From Escherichia coli (GTDB lineage Bacteria > Pseudomonadota > Gammaproteobacteria > Enterobacterales > Enterobacteriaceae): DNA of 64,000 nucleotides. Positions 27,001 to 39,000 of the stretch are shown here, one piece after another. The DNA is taken from NCBI RefSeq assembly GCF_050920415.1, contig NZ_CP169310.1, one strand, 5' to 3'. The position numbers were made by a program. The stretch's first letter is position 1. Each line of letters opens with the position of its first letter.

Positions 27001-30000
27001 AGAAAAAATAGCGGTTTTGCTGACACCAGTCTGCGCAGAAATGCGCGGGTACGACAGTGACTCGTCAAATCTCAGCTGTAGCACACGCGGGATTAATTCC
27101 GGATTATCTGCCAGTACCGCCTTTCGTGCATTCATCTTAAATGTCCTTTTACTGCGAAAATGGACATTGGTATCGGAAACAGGAAAGGGAGGCGAAAGAC
27201 GGTGAAGCGCTTACCATCAAGGCCAAGGGCGGTTAAGATATCAAAGTGAAATGAGTGCCGCTCCGATTAAGTGAACGGTATTTCACTGGTATCATTTTTT
27301 ACTGCCTCATCCGGCGAAAAGATGCTTGATAAAGAATTAATCTCGTGAATATATATCACGAGTATATACTTTATCTCTGACATCCATTAATTCATCTGTA
27401 ATTCTGTTCGCGAGTATAATGTCTGACTTTTTTTTGAATACAGGCAATTCATTGACTAATATTAAATCACTTACTGTTTTATTTTGCAATATTGGTTCAT
27501 ATATAATAATAGATATGTCTCTTGACTTTAGTTGACGGATGATATCCATAACGGCAGACTCACGGAAGTTATCTGAACCATTTTTCATAATAACTCGATA
27601 AAAACCCACTACTTTATGTTTTTTTTCCAATACTCTCTGTACAATAAAAGATTTACGTGTATCGTTTGCTCTCACTGTAGCAGTAATAATATCGCAGTGT
27701 ATATTTAGTTTATCATAGTTTGCTTTCAGTTGTTTCGTATCTTTTGGCAGACAATATCCACCATAACCAAATGATGGGTTATTATAATAATCACCAATTC
27801 TTCTATCCAGACAGACACCTCTGATTATATCTTTAGTGTTCAGCCCCGTAATTTCAGCATAGGTATCAAGTTCATTGAAAAATGCCACTCTTGTAGCGAG
27901 AAAAGCATTGGAAAATAGTTTTATTGCTTCAGCTTCTGCAGGCTCTGTGAACAAAACGGGTACATCCCTTTTCATTGCAGCATTTTTCATAATACTGGCA
28001 AAATGCCTCGCGCACTCTGAACGCTCTCCGATAATAATTCGAGATGGATAGAGATTATCATATAGTGCTTTCCCTTCACGTAAGAATTCTGGCGAAAATA
28101 TTATTTTGTCAGTGCAATATTTATGTCTGACTTTTTTTGTAAATCCAACAGGGATCGTTGATTTAATGATTATCACTGCCTGTGGATTAAATTTTACCAC
28201 ATCTTCTATAACTGACTCCACAGAAGCAGTATCAAAGAATCCTGTATTAGGATCATAATCAGTTGGAGTAGCAATTATAACATAATCAGCATCTAGGTAA
28301 GCTTCACTTTTATGCGTGGTTGCTTTAAAACAAATATTCCCATTTTGGAATACCTCCCGTATTTCATCATCATCAAGCGGTGAAATTCGTTTGTTCAACT
28401 GCTCAACCCTAATGGCATCAATATCAAATGCCGTCACATTATGATAACGTGCAAGAAGTAGTGCATTGGATAACCCAACGTATCCAGTTCCTGAAACGGT
28501 AATATTCATATTTCACACCATAAAAATAACGATTATTCAGTTAAATTTTTATTTCTACTTCTAGACCGACTGAATATGCAGGGGAACTGCGGGGAGAATT
28601 TTCAGTAGATGATGCCCGAAAACGCTCTGATGGCATAAACATCCCTAGCAATAGCTCAGTTTTTATATTTTTACTAAATTCGTAGCCCCAGATAAGATCT
28701 ATTTCACTCCCGAGATCCAGAGTAGAACTATTGTCATAACGGGACTTCAGGTCTGGATCATGAGAAGATAAAAAATCCCTGTCTGATTGTCTATAATAAT
28801 GATATACAAGATCCAGTGAACTGCTTGGGGATATATCCATTCCAGTGCCAACCGTCAGGATACGTATATTTGTCAACTCTGGAGATAATGTATTACCATA
28901 AATACTGAATTTAGTATTTCCACCAAAGCTGGCTTCATTCGACTGCAATCCGGTCTGATGATATTTTTTACTGGCTATGGCGTAACCCAGAGTAAAGCGG
29001 CTGCGCGATGGACTGTTATGAATCCAGGTAAGCCCTGCATCAATTACCCTCCCCTGATATTTTTTTTCGGATTTTTCTGCATACATTCCTCCGACCTCCA
29101 GCCAGTGCCGCCATCCCGTATCCGATGTACTGTGGGAACGTATCCCGTAAAAAGACTGACGCTCATATACATCATGCGTGTTTTTATTTACAGCAAAATA
29201 AATACCGGTATCCCAGTCCTTTTCCACACTGTACTGCAAAAATGCAGATTGTACGGATATCACACTTTTGTTACGTGTTGTATCATCAAGCAAATCTCGC
29301 TGCCAGTAATTCACACGTCCTGCCACCATCTCCACCTGCCAGTCATCTTTTTTCCAGCGCCCCCATATACCATCAAGATTTTCATCAAAAAGCCATTCTC
29401 TGACATCGCGGTACAGCCACCGCCCGGCTCGAATTTCTGCTCCGACTTCACGCAAACTTCCCCCTATATATCCCTGAGTCAGTTCCAGTCGGGTTTTATG
29501 TTCTTCTGGTTTACCGGAATCCCTCCTGGTTTTGTTTTTCAGTTCAGCTTCCGCCACACCATACAGAGAAGACTTTCTGGCAATCTCAATTCTTAAACGA
29601 TATTGTGGCTCAAATTCATGTCGGTTTTCCTGCTTTTGTCCCTTCCTTAATGTTCTGTTCCGCCAGCTCTCGCCTTCCAGCTTCATTGTAGAATGAAACC
29701 GTATCAGTTGTTCCCGGTTACTTCTGTCCCCGGACAGACTGTTTTTTTTTGGACGAAATAACTCATTGTCAACAGACTCTGAAGCCTGTACCGGAACTAC
29801 TCCACAAACAAAAAACAGAAGAAAATAACCACAGAATCGACCGGAACCGTTTCTGAACATAATTAAAAATACTCCATGCACTTTTCACAATAAGCAAGCA
29901 AAAGTAGGGTGGTATGCTTCCGCCCCGGAATTCGGGTACTCAAAAAAATATGCCGGGCCAGTGATAACAACCGGAACCCTTCCGTTTCTTTCACTGTTAC

Positions 30001-36000: not shown

Positions 36001-39000
36001 GCTGCCAACATCACTGCCTGAGCAAATTCGTGTACATGATTATATCCGGGATCGGAAAAACATCCGGAAAGTTCCGGTAGTAACGGAAAAGAACGGCGCA
36101 GTAAATCATGATAATATTCAGCATTATATTGCCTAGAATTAAAACGAGTTACCGGTGCTTTTACCCGGGAAATAGATTCCTGAAAAAAAGCCTCCTGAAC
36201 ATCTCCAAGGGCGAAAATATCCAGCTTCATTCCGGCTCGTTCATGAGCGAGAATTTCATTGACAATAAATGTTTCTGAAAAGCGGGGATAGCGTTTAACC
36301 ACATATCCGACATAAGGGTGTTTATTATCCATTACACTCTCCATGCCATTGATTTTAATTATTTTCTCTCCGCGCTGTAAATATCGCGTTCATTTTTTCT
36401 GTAAAGGAATGCAGCCCATTCAGACTGAGGTAAAGTCGTGGATCTGAAGGACACCAGTCGGAAATCAGCCAATCAGTTATTGACTGTGGCGTCAGACTGT
36501 CCGGATGCAAACATGTAACCAGATTCTTTTCTGCCATCCGTGAAGCACGTATCCATTGCTCAAGACGAGGAACAATACGGGGAATAATCAATGCCCGTTT
36601 CCGTAATGAAAGAATTTCCCGTAAGGTGTTATATCCCCCCATTGCCACCACGCTGTGCGTATGCTGTAGAAGAAAAAGAGGATCAGATACAAAACGAATA
36701 ATATGTAAATCATTACGCATGGACGCAATACGCTGTAATGATGTCACTTCCTCCCGAGCCATCTGGCTACCGGTAAGAATAACACCGTCCATCCCTGGCG
36801 GTAACAATGTCTCTGCAAATACAGATGCAAGGTGGTAGCCATCCTGCCCTCCCCCTGTAAGACATAATACGAATGGACGAGAAATCAGAGACTGAAATTG
36901 CTCATCCTGTAACACCGATGGAGATAATGGAACATCCGGATATCCAAGAAAACTGATTTTTCGGTATACTGATGGTTCCGGAGCAAGATCAAGCGACAAA
37001 TCATAGAATGAACGATCGCCATAAATCCATATATCAGAATAATACTGACGGACAATCGTATAATTATCTGCAGCATGCCATTGATGACGAACAACTGATG
37101 GTTCATCAATAATATCCCTGAGTCCAAGAATCAGATGCACATTATCATCAACCAATTCCGGAAGCACCGGCAGCAGTTCTGATAACGCCCCAGCAGGTAC
37201 ATTATCCACAACCATTACATCCGGACAATATTCACTCAATGCAGCTCGAATTATCTGTCTCCGAAGGCTAACCAATTTCCGGGTATTATTGCCCAGTGAC
37301 CGGGGGTGATATTTGCCGCACAACGTTTTGGCATAGGCTGGTAACGTAAGAATATCTGAGCGTTCAGGTAGTGTAAATAATCCGGATTCACGGGCACTGT
37401 TAATAATCAAAATTTCAGTATCAGAAAACCTTTTCTGAACTGCTCCTGCAAGCAAAAGATTTCGCCGTAAATGCCCAAGCCCCATCGTATCATGAGAATA
37501 AAACGCCAGCTTCATATCATCAATAAATTTAAAATGTCAATATTTCTATCATTTTTAAATAGCTACCGCACTAATTATAACAATTAGCATTAAACTTTTT
37601 AACCCATTTTGTTTTTAGATTTAATGTTTTAAATACTGGCAGATACTCAGCAATTTTCCCAACGAGATAAAATGCTATTATTTTTTAACATCCTTTTACA
37701 CCAGTACCCAAGTATATAAAATAAATAATAAGTCATCTTTCTAAATAATTTTAACTAATTGTGTACTCCTCTTTAAAATGTGCACAATTAGTTAAAACTT
37801 GGCTTCTACATTCTCTAGATGTACACATCCCTGTTTGCAAGGCTGAGGTGTACTGGCAATAGCGGACACCACCATTTGTTCTTTTTCTAAGCAGCCATCT
37901 GATAATATTTTATCCTGAAGGCTGCCGGGGAGATATTCCCAGACGAGAGTGACGACGCTGACGATTGTAAAAAATCTCAATGTATTCCCGTATTACTGAG
38001 ATGGCCTCATCCCAGCTCTTAAAACGATAGTTGCTCAGACTTTCATTTTTCAGTGTTCCCCAGAAGCTTTCCAACGAAGCGTTGTCGTAACAGTTACCTT
38101 TACGCGACATTGATGTTTTCAGACCAAACTGTTCCTGTATGGCCCTGTAATCGTATGCTCAGTACTGTGAACCACGATCGGAGTGGTGGATTATCCCGGC
38201 AGGTGGGCGCTGGTTCCTGAGCACCATAAACAGGGCTTTACCCGTCAACTCTTTCGTCATGCGCTCTCCCATGGCGTAACCGACAATTTCGCTCGTATAA
38301 ACATCTTTGACGCCAGCGATATACAGCCATCCTTCCCGGGTGGCAACATACGTTATATCTAGTGGTCAACAAAAACTGGCCACCGCGTTAGAGTTTTTCC
38401 AGTATCGATTTTCCGATTCGTTTGGGGGTAACCCACCGTTATATTCGTGCGGTCTTAGTGCGCTGTAATATCCAACGATAGAGCCTGCGGTAATGCTTAT
38501 TCCCGACGGTTCATGCCTGACAATTACATATAAAAATATTCCGGAGGGGCTATCCAGCCCCTCAACAGAATAAGTTATCAGCGATATCTGCTATCAGAAA
38601 TCATACCGAATACCCAGTCTCCCTTCAGCATCGGTCTTAAAGTAACCATCAAAACTGCTGTTCACTTTTGCCTGTACTGACAGTTTATCTGTCAGCTTTC
38701 CGTTGATACCAAACGAAACGGTATAGCGGTCAGCTTTCTCTGCATCATAGTGACGGGCTTTCCAGTCATCACGTAGGGTCATTCCGGGCATATCGTTAAA
38801 CGTGATATTCCGCCAGATACCTGCCTTCAGCGTCATATTTCCAAATAATTTTTCTGCCTCAACCCCGGCTTTCAGCCACAAGGCATCGCCATCATGAAGC
38901 TCCACGCTCCGCTCCCGGCCCTGCAGACGATTTCCGTCCACCCGTGCACCGTTCAGTGAAACAGTCGGTGTTATCGACATATCAAGAGGGGATGCATACA

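What the first reader, a model, noticed from the sequence alone, without database searches (positions are those of the whole stretch)
27337..37797. Eight-gene operon for a phosphorylated glycoconjugate: three GT-B glycosyltransferases, MsbA-like ABC exporter, two kinase-fold phosphotransferases, OM protein, Ugd
Seen in sequence: eight co-directional, overlapping or tightly spaced genes on the minus strand (37515 down to 27337) with a 275-bp AT-rich leader, bounded on both sides by IS debris. Products: UGT/MurG-like GT (386 aa), two GT4-like GTs (415 and 389 aa), a fused TMD-NBD ABC exporter (Walker A GPSGAGKST, LSGGQRQR, ILLDEP), a 441-aa APH/choline-kinase-like protein (HGDFSADQV…IIDWDRC), a 337-aa WaaP/Kdo-kinase-like protein (HRDFYPDQII…LLDFDLS), a signal-peptide-bearing 440-aa protein that may be an outer-membrane channel, and UDP-glucose 6-dehydrogenase. 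Established knowledge: none of the canonical E. coli surface-glycan layouts fits. There is no Wza/Wzb/Wzc, no KpsMT/KpsCS/KpsDE, no Wzx/Wzy or initiating WecA/WbaP-type transferase, and the waa core locus has different gene content. Inference: the set looks self-contained for building a glucuronic-acid-containing, phosphorylated oligosaccharide or glycolipid on the cytoplasmic face and exporting it through an MsbA-like flippase, possibly to a dedicated OM protein. Its position beside the SPATE and fimbrial genes suggests a surface or virulence role.
Basis: partly seen in the sequence, partly recalled or inferred. Interest (0 to 1): 0.78.

Follow-up and report, generated by a model that had tools for sequence, protein, structure and literature searches.

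The report
Uncharacterised plasmid-borne phospho-glycan export cassette
An intact eight-gene operon on an E. coli virulence plasmid is a copy of a widespread but apparently undescribed bacterial gene cassette that most likely builds a sugar chain, adds phosphate to it and pumps it out through its own outer-membrane channel.

Summary
Eight co-directional, intact, tightly packed minus-strand genes (37515 to 27337) sit between IS66 and IS3 remnants on a p7v-like STEC/ETEC plasmid. They encode a MurG/GT1-like glycosyltransferase (COG4671), two GT4 glycosyltransferases, an ABCB-type half-transporter, two paralogous APH-fold kinases, an AlgE-like 18-strand porin and a nucleotide-sugar dehydrogenase.

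The new result is that the first seven genes form a conserved cassette. The order GT, GT4, GT4, ABC, [APH1], APH2, porin recurs in at least 193 species across about 14 phyla, and no characterised member was found. In many lineages the two kinases are fused to each other. Rarer fusions join them to the ABC exporter, to the second GT4 or to a sulfotransferase. The ugd gene is a low-GC add-on found mainly in E. coli.

My best reading (confidence about 0.55) is cytoplasmic assembly of a glycan, phosphorylation coupled to ABC export, and outer-membrane passage through the dedicated porin. The E. coli product would be anionic and would probably contain glucuronic acid.

The kinases are not WaaP-like, the exporter is not an MsbA orthologue, and the layout fits no canonical capsule, O-antigen or synthase pathway. 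The product is unknown, and the virulence link rests only on adjacency.

The parts
37516..37797 (-). AT-rich leader (23.8% GC). The best sigma-70-like site is at 37602..37574 (TTAAAA-17-TATAAT with TG), and a palindrome lies at about 37795-37750.
   Evidence: The leader is not conserved in the second E. coli variant, where homology starts at the first start codon.
36355..37515 (-). GT-B glycosyltransferase, 386 aa, of the COG4671 / MurG-GT1 clan, here called 'GT28-like'. It is the first gene of the cassette.
   Evidence: Pfam GT28_C and Glyco_trans_1_3 match only weakly. The family profile against PDB gives MurG 1f0k at E=1e-6, followed by GT1 UGTs. A source label gives COG4671. No hydrophobic segment was found.
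35097..36332 (-). GT4 glycosyltransferase 'GT4a', 411 aa (an alternative start at 36344 gives 415 aa).
   Evidence: Pfam Glycos_transf_1 and Glyco_transf_4. NCBIfam EpsE/WcaL/TuaC-like matches fall far below cut-offs. The nearest PDB sequences are BshA, MshA, SPS and PimB'.
33931..35100 (-). GT4 glycosyltransferase 'GT4b', 389 aa, GTG start, overlapping GT4a by 4 nt.
   Evidence: The nearest PDB sequences are sucrose-phosphate synthase Tll1590, MshA and GlgM. It is fused to APH1-APH2 in P0342.
32127..33941 (-). ABCB-type half-transporter (TMD-NBD), 604 aa.
   Evidence: Pfam ABC_membrane 3e-41 and ABC_tran 6e-33. MsbA, HepA and NdvA models all score below their cut-offs. PDB matches are P-gp, Sav1866, BmrA and MsbA. 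It is fused to APH1-APH2 in P0292 and P0343.
30851..32137 (-). APH-fold kinase 'APH1', 428 aa (441 aa from the ATG at 32176), with a duplicated N-lobe motif RYKPxxxC. It is an accessory member, absent from many cyanobacterial cassettes.
   Evidence: Pfam APH. The catalytic motifs HGDFSxDQ and IDWD are conserved. It is a paralogue of APH2.
29863..30876 (-). APH-fold kinase 'APH2', 337 aa, GTG start, overlapping APH1 by 26 nt. It is a core member of the cassette.
   Evidence: The motifs HRDFYPDQ and LDFDL are invariant in 33 homologues. The AlphaFold2 model has pLDDT 94, and its nearest folds are small-molecule kinases.
28541..29860 (-). Outer-membrane AlgE-like 18-strand beta-barrel, 439 aa, with a Sec signal peptide ending ...VQA|SE.
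   Evidence: Pfam Alginate_exp 1.5e-23. The AlphaFold2 model has 18 strands. Foldseek's top 17 hits are all AlgE, with E=3e-19 and TM 0.72-0.77.
27337..28509 (-). Nucleotide-sugar (probably UDP-glucose) 6-dehydrogenase, 390 aa. It is a low-GC add-on to the cassette.
   Evidence: TIGR03026 scores 342 bits against a 190-bit cut-off. The PRK15057 Ugd equivalog scores 568 against 757. GC is 34.7% against 43-49% for the other genes, and dS is 0.70 against 0.34-0.47. It is absent from nearly all other cassettes.
26535..27135 (-). IS66-family remnants (transposase and TnpA fragments) forming the downstream boundary.
   Evidence: RefSeq annotation of identical plasmids.
37887..38359 (-). IS3-family transposase remnant forming the upstream boundary.
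   Evidence: RefSeq annotation. The sequence was read.

Best explanation
The block is a horizontally acquired, functional copy of a widespread and so far uncharacterised cassette with the order GT28-like, GT4, GT4, ABCB exporter, APH1, APH2, porin. In E. coli it has gained a ugd gene.

Proposed mechanism:
1. Three soluble or peripheral GT-B glycosyltransferases assemble a short glycan, or a repeat polymer, at the cytoplasmic face. In E. coli UDP-glucuronic acid from the plasmid ugd would be one donor.
2. The two paralogous APH-fold kinases phosphorylate the glycan in a step physically and functionally coupled to the ABC half-transporter. This could be a cap or export mark, comparable to the WbdD terminator in the O9a pathway.
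3. The ABCB-type exporter moves the anionic product across the inner membrane.
4. The product crosses the outer membrane through the dedicated monomeric barrel, which is AlgE-like in proteobacteria and SomB/OprB-like in cyanobacteria.

Shown here: the gene families, their intactness, the conserved synteny, the gene fusions and the porin fold. Inferred: the substrate class, the order of steps, the direction of transport and the nature of the acceptor (lipid-linked or free).
For: Families.

Intactness: dN/dS is 0.12-0.19 for all eight genes, and the internal genes have Shine-Dalgarno sequences and overlapping stops and starts.

Conserved synteny: the same gene order appears in 80 fetched loci out of 193 matching species in a 100,044-species genome scan. 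The APH2 family has 1,309 representative clusters at E<=1e-30.

Gene fusions:
- APH1-APH2 in most proteobacterial, planctomycete and Rhodobacterales versions.
- ABC-APH1-APH2 in P0292 and P0343.
- GT4b-APH1-APH2 in P0342.
- Sulfotransferase-APH1-APH2 in P0231.
- A PF13469 sulfotransferase gene inserted between the ABC and APH genes in a planctomycete locus.
The sulfotransferase cases fit the idea that the kinases add anionic decoration to a glycan.

Outer-membrane partner: a porin gene follows the kinases in 44 of 80 loci, but its family changes with the type of envelope.

Catalytic competence: the kinase catalytic motifs are invariant.

Localisation: the GTs and kinases have no hydrophobic segments, whereas the porin has a signal peptide.

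Anionic product in E. coli: ugd has been recruited, and AlgE is a channel for a polyuronate (established knowledge of AlgE).
Against: No product has been observed and there are no expression data.

ABCB half-transporters usually move lipids, peptides or small molecules. I know of no precedent for one paired with an AlgE-type porin without a periplasmic scaffold.

The cassette also occurs without a detectable porin gene in Rubrobacter, in Chloroflexi and in many other loci, so outer-membrane passage is not universal.

The nearest solved relatives of both GT4s are enzymes that glycosylate small anionic or phosphorylated acceptors: BshA, MshA, sucrose-phosphate synthase, GlgM and PimA/B'. The kinases could therefore act first, making a phosphorylated acceptor, and the product could be a small phospho-oligosaccharide.

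The APH2 fold is generic. Its nearest structures are antibiotic and metabolite kinases at TM about 0.6.

Some ABCB-fold transporters are importers (established knowledge).
Confidence: 0.55

Rival explanations
1. Lipid-linked glycan or glycolipid pathway. The MurG-like GT and the two GT4s extend an undecaprenyl-PP-sugar (primed by chromosomal WecA) or a membrane lipid. The kinases decorate it as WaaP and WaaY decorate the LPS core. The ABCB protein flips it as MsbA, PglK or Wzk do. The product then stays membrane-bound or is ligated to lipid A-core.
For: The closest solved relative of the first GT is MurG, which acts on a lipid-PP-sugar. The ABC protein scores best against MsbA-type models. GT4a's best curated matches, EpsE, WcaL and TuaC, act on lipid-linked intermediates. 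PimA and PimB' are among the GT4 PDB hits.
Against: A dedicated hydrophilic-pore barrel (AlgE-like or OprB-like) follows the kinases in 44 of 80 loci, and a lipid would not use such a channel. No ligase, polyprenol or lipid-synthesis gene is conserved next to the cassette. The kinases show no specific similarity to WaaP or WaaY. All MsbA and PglK equivalog cut-offs are missed.
Confidence: 0.2
2. Small phosphorylated oligosaccharide or solute. The kinases first phosphorylate a sugar or polyol. The GT4s, acting like sucrose-phosphate synthase, MshA or GlgM, glycosylate the phosphorylated acceptor. A small phospho-oligosaccharide is then exported to the periplasm or medium, comparable to osmoregulated periplasmic glucans or a signal molecule.
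For: The nearest solved GT4 relatives all use small anionic or phosphorylated acceptors. The cyanobacterial partner is an OprB/SomB-type carbohydrate or solute porin. The APH fold includes anomeric sugar kinases (established knowledge). There are only three single-domain GTs and no polymerase-like multidomain enzyme.
Against: The PDB comparison is biased towards the GT4 enzymes that happen to have solved structures. AlgE-type channels are known for long polymers. The fusion of the kinases to the C-terminus of the exporter fits a last-step modification better than a first step. Secreting phosphate-rich small molecules would be costly.
Confidence: 0.15
3. Drug or xenobiotic modification and efflux. 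A GT1-like glycosyltransferase, APH-type phosphotransferases and an ABC pump inactivate and expel an antibiotic-like compound.
For: The APH2 model's nearest structures include APH(2''), macrolide and corramycin phosphotransferases. The GT28-like profile weakly hits macrolide GTs such as OleD and YjiC. The exporter resembles multidrug pumps.
Against: No NCBIfam resistance model is hit. Two additional GT4 enzymes, a dedicated porin, sulfotransferase fusions and ugd recruitment are not features of resistance cassettes. The fixed seven-gene order across about 14 phyla argues for a biosynthetic pathway.
Confidence: 0.05
4. Modified-peptide (RiPP or glycopeptide) production. Kinases like the class V lanthipeptide kinase LxmK and GTs modify a precursor peptide, which a bacteriocin-type ABC protein exports.
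For: APH1 weakly matches LxmK, at 2e-9 and 37 bits against a 315-bit cut-off. The ABC protein scores about 290 bits on bacteriocin-exporter models.
Against: No conserved small ORF lies outside the large genes in 87 loci; every conserved small ORF is a shadow inside a cassette gene. There is no dehydratase, cyclase or peptidase domain. The leader is not conserved even between the two E. coli variants.
Confidence: 0.03

Closest known systems
ABC-transporter-dependent O-polysaccharide assembly with a kinase chain terminator (E. coli O9a: WbdA/B/C GT4 enzymes, WbdD kinase-methyltransferase, Wzm/Wzt)
   Same: GT4 glycosyltransferases build the glycan in the cytoplasm. A protein-kinase-fold enzyme phosphorylates it. 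The modification is coupled to an ABC exporter. The modifying enzyme can be multidomain; here, kinase-sulfotransferase and kinase-ABC fusions occur.
   Different: The exporter is a fused ABCB-type half-transporter, not an ABC-2 Wzm/Wzt pair with a carbohydrate-binding module. There are two paralogous APH kinases and no methyltransferase or coiled coil. A dedicated porin replaces ligation to lipid A and Lpt transport. The comparison with WbdD rests on established knowledge, not on a sequence test made here.
Alginate secretion porin AlgE (synthase-dependent pathway, Pseudomonas)
   Same: The OM protein has the Pfam Alginate_exp domain, 18 strands, and AlgE as its best structural match. In E. coli the product is likely a uronic-acid-containing anionic glycan, because ugd is present.
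   Different: No Alg8/Alg44 synthase, AlgK TPR lipoprotein, AlgX/G/L or c-di-GMP receptor is present. Sequence identity to AlgE is about 15%. The inner-membrane step uses an ABC exporter.
ABCB-type exporters linked to glycans: MsbA (lipid A-core), PglK/Wzk (Und-PP-oligosaccharide), NdvA/ChvA (cyclic beta-glucan), HepA (heterocyst envelope polysaccharide)
   Same: The architecture is the same TMD-NBD half-transporter, and all these models give strong sub-threshold matches of 159-380 bits.
   Different: No equivalog cut-off is reached. None of these systems has tandem APH kinases or an adjacent dedicated porin.
LPS core assembly (WaaG GT4, WaaP and WaaY kinases, MsbA)
   Same: The logic is GT4 plus sugar kinases plus an ABCB flippase.
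   Different: The kinases are unrelated beyond the fold, at 5.5% and 0.75% hhalign probability. There are no heptosyl or Kdo transferases. The cassette also occurs in phyla without LPS.

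Membership tests
AlgE / Alginate_exp outer-membrane channels (PF13372) | Significant match to the family profile | tested here: met
   Pfam Alginate_exp i-Evalue 1.5e-23. RefSeq names it 'alginate export family protein'.
AlgE / Alginate_exp outer-membrane channels (PF13372) | Monomeric 18-strand beta-barrel fold | tested here: met
   The AlphaFold2 model has 18 strands at pLDDT 81. The top 17 Foldseek PDB hits are AlgE, with E=3e-19 and TM 0.72-0.77.
AlgE / Alginate_exp outer-membrane channels (PF13372) | Works with the alginate synthase machinery (Alg8/Alg44/AlgK/AlgX) | tested here: not met
   No such gene is in the window block or in any of 80 related loci.
AlgE / Alginate_exp outer-membrane channels (PF13372) | Electropositive pore lining for a polyanion | not testable with these tools
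   Model coordinates are not returned. Conserved Arg and Asp residues are seen in alignment A4 but were not mapped onto the pore.
MsbA lipid A flippase | Reaches the curated equivalog score | tested here: not met
   TIGR02203 scores 380 bits against a 602-bit cut-off, and PRK11176 scores 316 against 867.
MsbA lipid A flippase | ABCB-type TMD-NBD half-transporter architecture | tested here: met
   Pfam ABC_membrane plus ABC_tran. PDB matches are Sav1866, BmrA and MsbA at about 257-275 bits.
WaaP / WaaY LPS core heptose kinases | Specific sequence similarity beyond the catalytic loop | tested here: not met
   hhalign of the APH2 profile gives 5.5% probability against E. coli WaaP and 0.75% against WaaY. 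APH2 has no NCBIfam hit. WaaP is not among the top 50 fold matches.
APH / eukaryotic-like kinase superfamily (PF01636) | Profile match and conserved catalytic and Mg-binding motifs | tested here: met
   Both kinases match Pfam APH, best at 2e-14. H-x-D-x4-Q and D-x-D are invariant. The APH2 model has pLDDT 94 with APH-fold matches at probability 1.0.
ABC-transporter-dependent capsule or O-antigen pathways (KpsMT/KpsED, Wzm/Wzt) | Separate ABC-2 permease and NBD proteins; for capsules also OPX/PCP proteins and KpsC/S | tested here: not met
   The eight products contain no such families.
Wzx/Wzy-dependent pathways | Wzx flippase, Wzy polymerase, Wzz/Wzc, and an initiating phosphoglycosyl transferase in the locus | tested here: not met
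   None is among the eight products or the conserved neighbours.
UDP-glucose 6-dehydrogenase (Ugd) | Three-domain UDPG_MGDP_dh architecture and curated score | tested here: inconclusive
   All three Pfam domains are present. The subfamily TIGR03026 cut-off is passed, at 342 against 190. The Ugd equivalog PRK15057 cut-off is not reached, at 568 against 757, although alignment to the model is full-length.
GT4 glycosyltransferases | GT-B fold with Glyco_transf_4 N-domain and Glycos_transf_1 C-domain | tested here: met
   Both proteins match both domains, best at 2.7e-32 and 2.7e-14.
The conserved seven-gene cassette defined here | Gene order GT28-like, GT4, GT4, ABC, (APH1), APH2, (porin) with detectable orthology for each gene | tested here: met
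   tblastn of the window proteins on 86 loci shows the order conserved. Identity is 30-60% outside E. coli and 47-60% in Enterobacteriaceae bacterium LSJC7.

The most novel reading that the evidence does not exclude
The cassette is a distinct, undescribed route of bacterial glycan secretion. A glycan built in the cytoplasm is phosphorylated by a tandem kinase module docked on, and sometimes fused to, an ABCB half-transporter. It is exported and then released through a single dedicated porin, without OPX/PCP proteins, TPR scaffolds or a synthase. The route is present in at least 193 species across about 14 phyla and has been captured, together with ugd, by STEC/ETEC hybrid virulence plasmids.
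Probability: 0.4. Interest if true: 0.8.

Novelty: new variant of a known kind. Interest (0 to 1): 0.68.

Why it matters
If the reading is right, textbook schemes of bacterial polysaccharide export (Wzx/Wzy, ABC-2 transporter, synthase) lack a pathway that is common in cyanobacteria and scattered through many other phyla.

Its E. coli copy sits on a conjugative virulence plasmid of emerging STEC/ETEC hybrids and cryptic clade I strains. There, a new anionic surface or secreted glycan could affect serum, phage or host interactions, and serotyping.

The natural ABC-kinase and GT-kinase fusions are ready-made material for studying how glycan modification is coupled to export. Because the E. coli version lies in a tractable host, the pathway is directly testable.

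Tried and rejected
Known E. coli glycan locus: rejected. Only 17 of 5,426 complete genomes and 10 of 72,556 plasmids carry the block, and RefSeq gives its genes only generic names.

Literature: searches by protein accession, by COG and locus tag, and by family-name combinations found nothing. The two papers on these plasmids that I could open do not mention the cluster. The Leonard 2016 paper on plasmid p7v could not be opened.

Anti-phage defence system: PADLOC gives only generic ATPase and kinase noise.

RiPP pathway: no conserved small ORF was found.

WaaP-like kinase: rejected by hhalign.

Conserved regulatory leader: rejected, because homology between the two E. coli variants starts at the first start codon.

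Kinase substrate from structure: the APH2 model matches only generic small-molecule kinases at TM about 0.6. The best profile hit, 7S3L, is an unannotated structural-genomics entry.

Regulation: an OmpR-type two-component system flanks the cassette in about 30 of 80 loci, but it matches only generic CusS/PhoR-like models below cut-off. The E. coli copy has none.

Single-sequence searches of the PDB for the first GT, the 337-aa kinase (APH2) and the porin gave nothing usable.

Full report
**1. Observation**

The window carries eight co-directional minus-strand ORFs from 37515 down to 27337. The window is 100% identical to about 224-kb plasmids of E. coli GB089 and 09-00049. With the RefSeq start sites of those plasmids, the junctions are +22, -4, -11, -11, -26, +2 and +31 nt. 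Six of the eight genes are preceded by a clear Shine-Dalgarno sequence.

The 282-bp leader is 23.8% GC and contains the best promoter-like site of the region. An IS66 remnant and an IS3 remnant bound the block.

**2. Families**

| Gene | Size | Assignment | Evidence |
|---|---|---|---|
| GT28-like | 386 aa | Weak GT28_C / MJ1255-type GT-B |. The family profile hits MurG at E=1e-6, then GT1 UGTs. One source labels a homologue COG4671. |
| GT4a, GT4b | 411, 389 aa | GT4 glycosyltransferases |. |
| ABC | 604 aa | ABCB-type TMD-NBD exporter | Best match MsbA models at 380 bits, below the 602-bit cut-off. |
| APH1, APH2 | 428, 337 aa | Pfam APH kinases |. |
| OMP | 439 aa | Alginate_exp protein with a signal peptide |. 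|
| Ugd | 390 aa | Nucleotide-sugar dehydrogenase | Passes the subfamily cut-off but not the Ugd equivalog cut-off. |

An AlphaFold2 model of the OM protein has 18 strands. Its 17 best PDB matches are all AlgE.

**3. The genes are functional**

A second E. coli variant of the whole eight-gene block sits in a different context, next to DsbA and bactofilin genes. It is about 88% identical at the nucleotide level. Against it, every gene is free of stops and has dN/dS of 0.12-0.19.

**4. Where it occurs**

In E. coli the block is rare. It is in 17 of 5,426 complete genomes, always on plasmids, and in 10 of 72,556 PLSDB plasmids, all Escherichia and all conjugative.

These are p7v-like chimeric STEC/ETEC plasmids, which carry ST-I enterotoxin, K88-like fimbriae and the serine protease EatA. 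The paper describing them does not mention this cluster.

Outside E. coli the 337-aa kinase has 35-47% identical relatives. In Gloeocapsopsis and in a metagenome contig, the neighbouring genes are the same six families in the same order, followed by a porin.

A scan of one genome per species (100,044 species) found 193 species with a relative. tblastn of all eight window proteins on the 80 fetched loci shows the order GT28-like, GT4a, GT4b, ABC, [APH1], APH2 almost everywhere. The groups represented are:
- Enterobacterales, Burkholderiales, Rhodocyclales, Nitrosomonadales and Rhodobacterales
- Myxococcota, Nitrospirota, Planctomycetota and Verrucomicrobiota
- Acidobacteriota, Gemmatimonadota and Bacteroidetes
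- Chloroflexi, Rubrobacter, Rokubacteria and many cyanobacteria

The APH2 family has 1,309 representative clusters at E<=1e-30.

**5. Variable parts**

- APH1 is missing from many cyanobacterial cassettes.
- The porin is AlgE-like in 22 loci, mostly proteobacterial plus three Myxococcota and two Nitrospirota loci. It is SomB/OprB+SLH-type in 22 cyanobacterial loci.
- ugd occurs only in the E. coli versions and in one Nitrosomonadales locus.
- In E. coli, ugd has 34.7% GC against 43-49% for the rest. It is also more diverged between the two E. coli variants, with dS 0.70 against 0.34-0.47. It is therefore an add-on.
- An OmpR-type two-component system flanks the cassette in about 30 loci. The E. 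coli copy has no regulator, and its leader is not conserved between the two E. coli variants.

**6. Fusions**

APH1 and APH2 are paralogues (hhalign 98.5%) that share an RYKPGRR N-lobe motif. In Enterobacterales, Burkholderiales, Rhodobacterales and Planctomycetota they form one ORF of 730-820 aa.

Rarer proteins show three further fusions:
- The ABC exporter joined to APH1-APH2 (P0292, P0343).
- GT4b joined to APH1-APH2 (P0342).
- A sulfotransferase joined to APH1-APH2 (P0231).

In addition, a planctomycete locus has a PF13469 sulfotransferase gene between the ABC and kinase genes.

These fusions tie the kinases to the cytoplasmic side of the exporter and to the glycosyltransferases. They also place the kinases alongside another enzyme that adds an anionic group to glycans.

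**7. Mechanism**

The best-supported model has four steps:
1. Three GT-B enzymes assemble a glycan in the cytoplasm.
2. The kinase pair phosphorylates it.
3. The ABCB half-transporter exports it.
4. The dedicated barrel carries it across the outer membrane.

In E. coli, recruitment of ugd and the AlgE-type channel point to a uronic-acid-containing anionic product. The families, synteny, fusions and porin fold are shown. The substrate, the order of steps and the direction of transport are inferred.

Three points leave the details open. The nearest solved GT4 relatives (BshA, MshA, sucrose-phosphate synthase, GlgM, PimA/B') use small anionic acceptors. The first GT's nearest relative is MurG. 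The kinase fold is generic. A small phospho-oligosaccharide or a lipid-linked intermediate therefore remains possible.

**8. Comparison with known systems**

The logic resembles the O9a pathway (GT4 enzymes, WbdD kinase terminator, ABC export) and LPS core assembly (WaaG, WaaP, WaaY, MsbA). Membership fails in both cases. The exporter is not an ABC-2 pair and not an MsbA orthologue. The kinases are not WaaP- or WaaY-like.

The porin is AlgE-like in fold, but none of the alginate machinery is present. No Wzx/Wzy, Kps, Wza or synthase components are found.

Defence-system, RiPP and drug-resistance readings were tested and are disfavoured.

**9. Novelty and limits**

No description of the cassette was found in the searchable literature, but subscription journals are mostly not covered.

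I rate it a new variant of a known kind: an ABC-exporter-dependent glycan pathway with an unprecedented set of partners. A virulence role is suggested only by adjacency on a mosaic, IS-rich plasmid that also carries metabolic modules.

Noticed in passing
window 21834-26430 (+): The plasmid carries fdnG-fdxH-fdnI, and fdnG is one uninterrupted 1016-aa ORF. At the site where chromosomal E. coli FdnG has selenocysteine (recalled from memory), this copy reads QARLCHGPTV. It therefore appears to be a Cys-type formate dehydrogenase-N.
   Followed up: partly
window 3694-9720: A complete-looking gentisate pathway module sits next to IS1414 on the same virulence plasmid. It comprises 3-hydroxybenzoate 6-monooxygenase, maiA, a fumarylacetoacetate hydrolase family protein, gtdA, an MFS transporter and a LysR regulator.
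   Followed up: no
window ~37750-37795 (minus-strand reading): A near-perfect palindrome, TTAACTAATTGTGCACA...TGTACACAATTAGTTAA, lies in the AT-rich leader upstream of the best promoter-like site. It could be an operator or part of the IS end. It is not conserved in the second E. coli variant.
   Followed up: partly
window 30851-32137 (APH1) and related loci: APH1 contains two copies of the N-lobe motif (Y/L)RYKPxxxC, at about residues 60 and 170, which suggests a duplicated N-lobe. The APH2 profile matches three stretches in the fused proteins.
   Followed up: partly
L004-L006 (draft E. coli assemblies): A second variant of the whole eight-gene block, about 88% identical, lies downstream of DsbA-like, hypothetical and bactofilin genes near a faeA-like gene. 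A PAPS-reductase-like gene follows it. This shows that the GT28-to-ugd block moves as a unit.
   Followed up: partly
window 26800-38700: The simple terminator-pattern scan found 29 sites against 9.5 +/- 3.6 in shuffles, mostly inside coding sequence. The reason for the excess was not examined.
   Followed up: no
L061, L063, L076, L080 (Myxococcota / 'Deltaproteobacteria'): A sulfatase-family protein of about 635 aa is a recurrent neighbour of the cassette in these lineages. In LSJC7 an AAA_33 P-loop kinase follows the porin gene.
   Followed up: partly
window 17620-17838 and 38594-42433: The sta1 gene (ST-I enterotoxin) lies between IS91, IS3 and IS21 remnants. A 1279-aa S6-family autotransporter protease (SPATE) lies immediately upstream of the IS3 remnant that bounds the cluster.
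   Followed up: no
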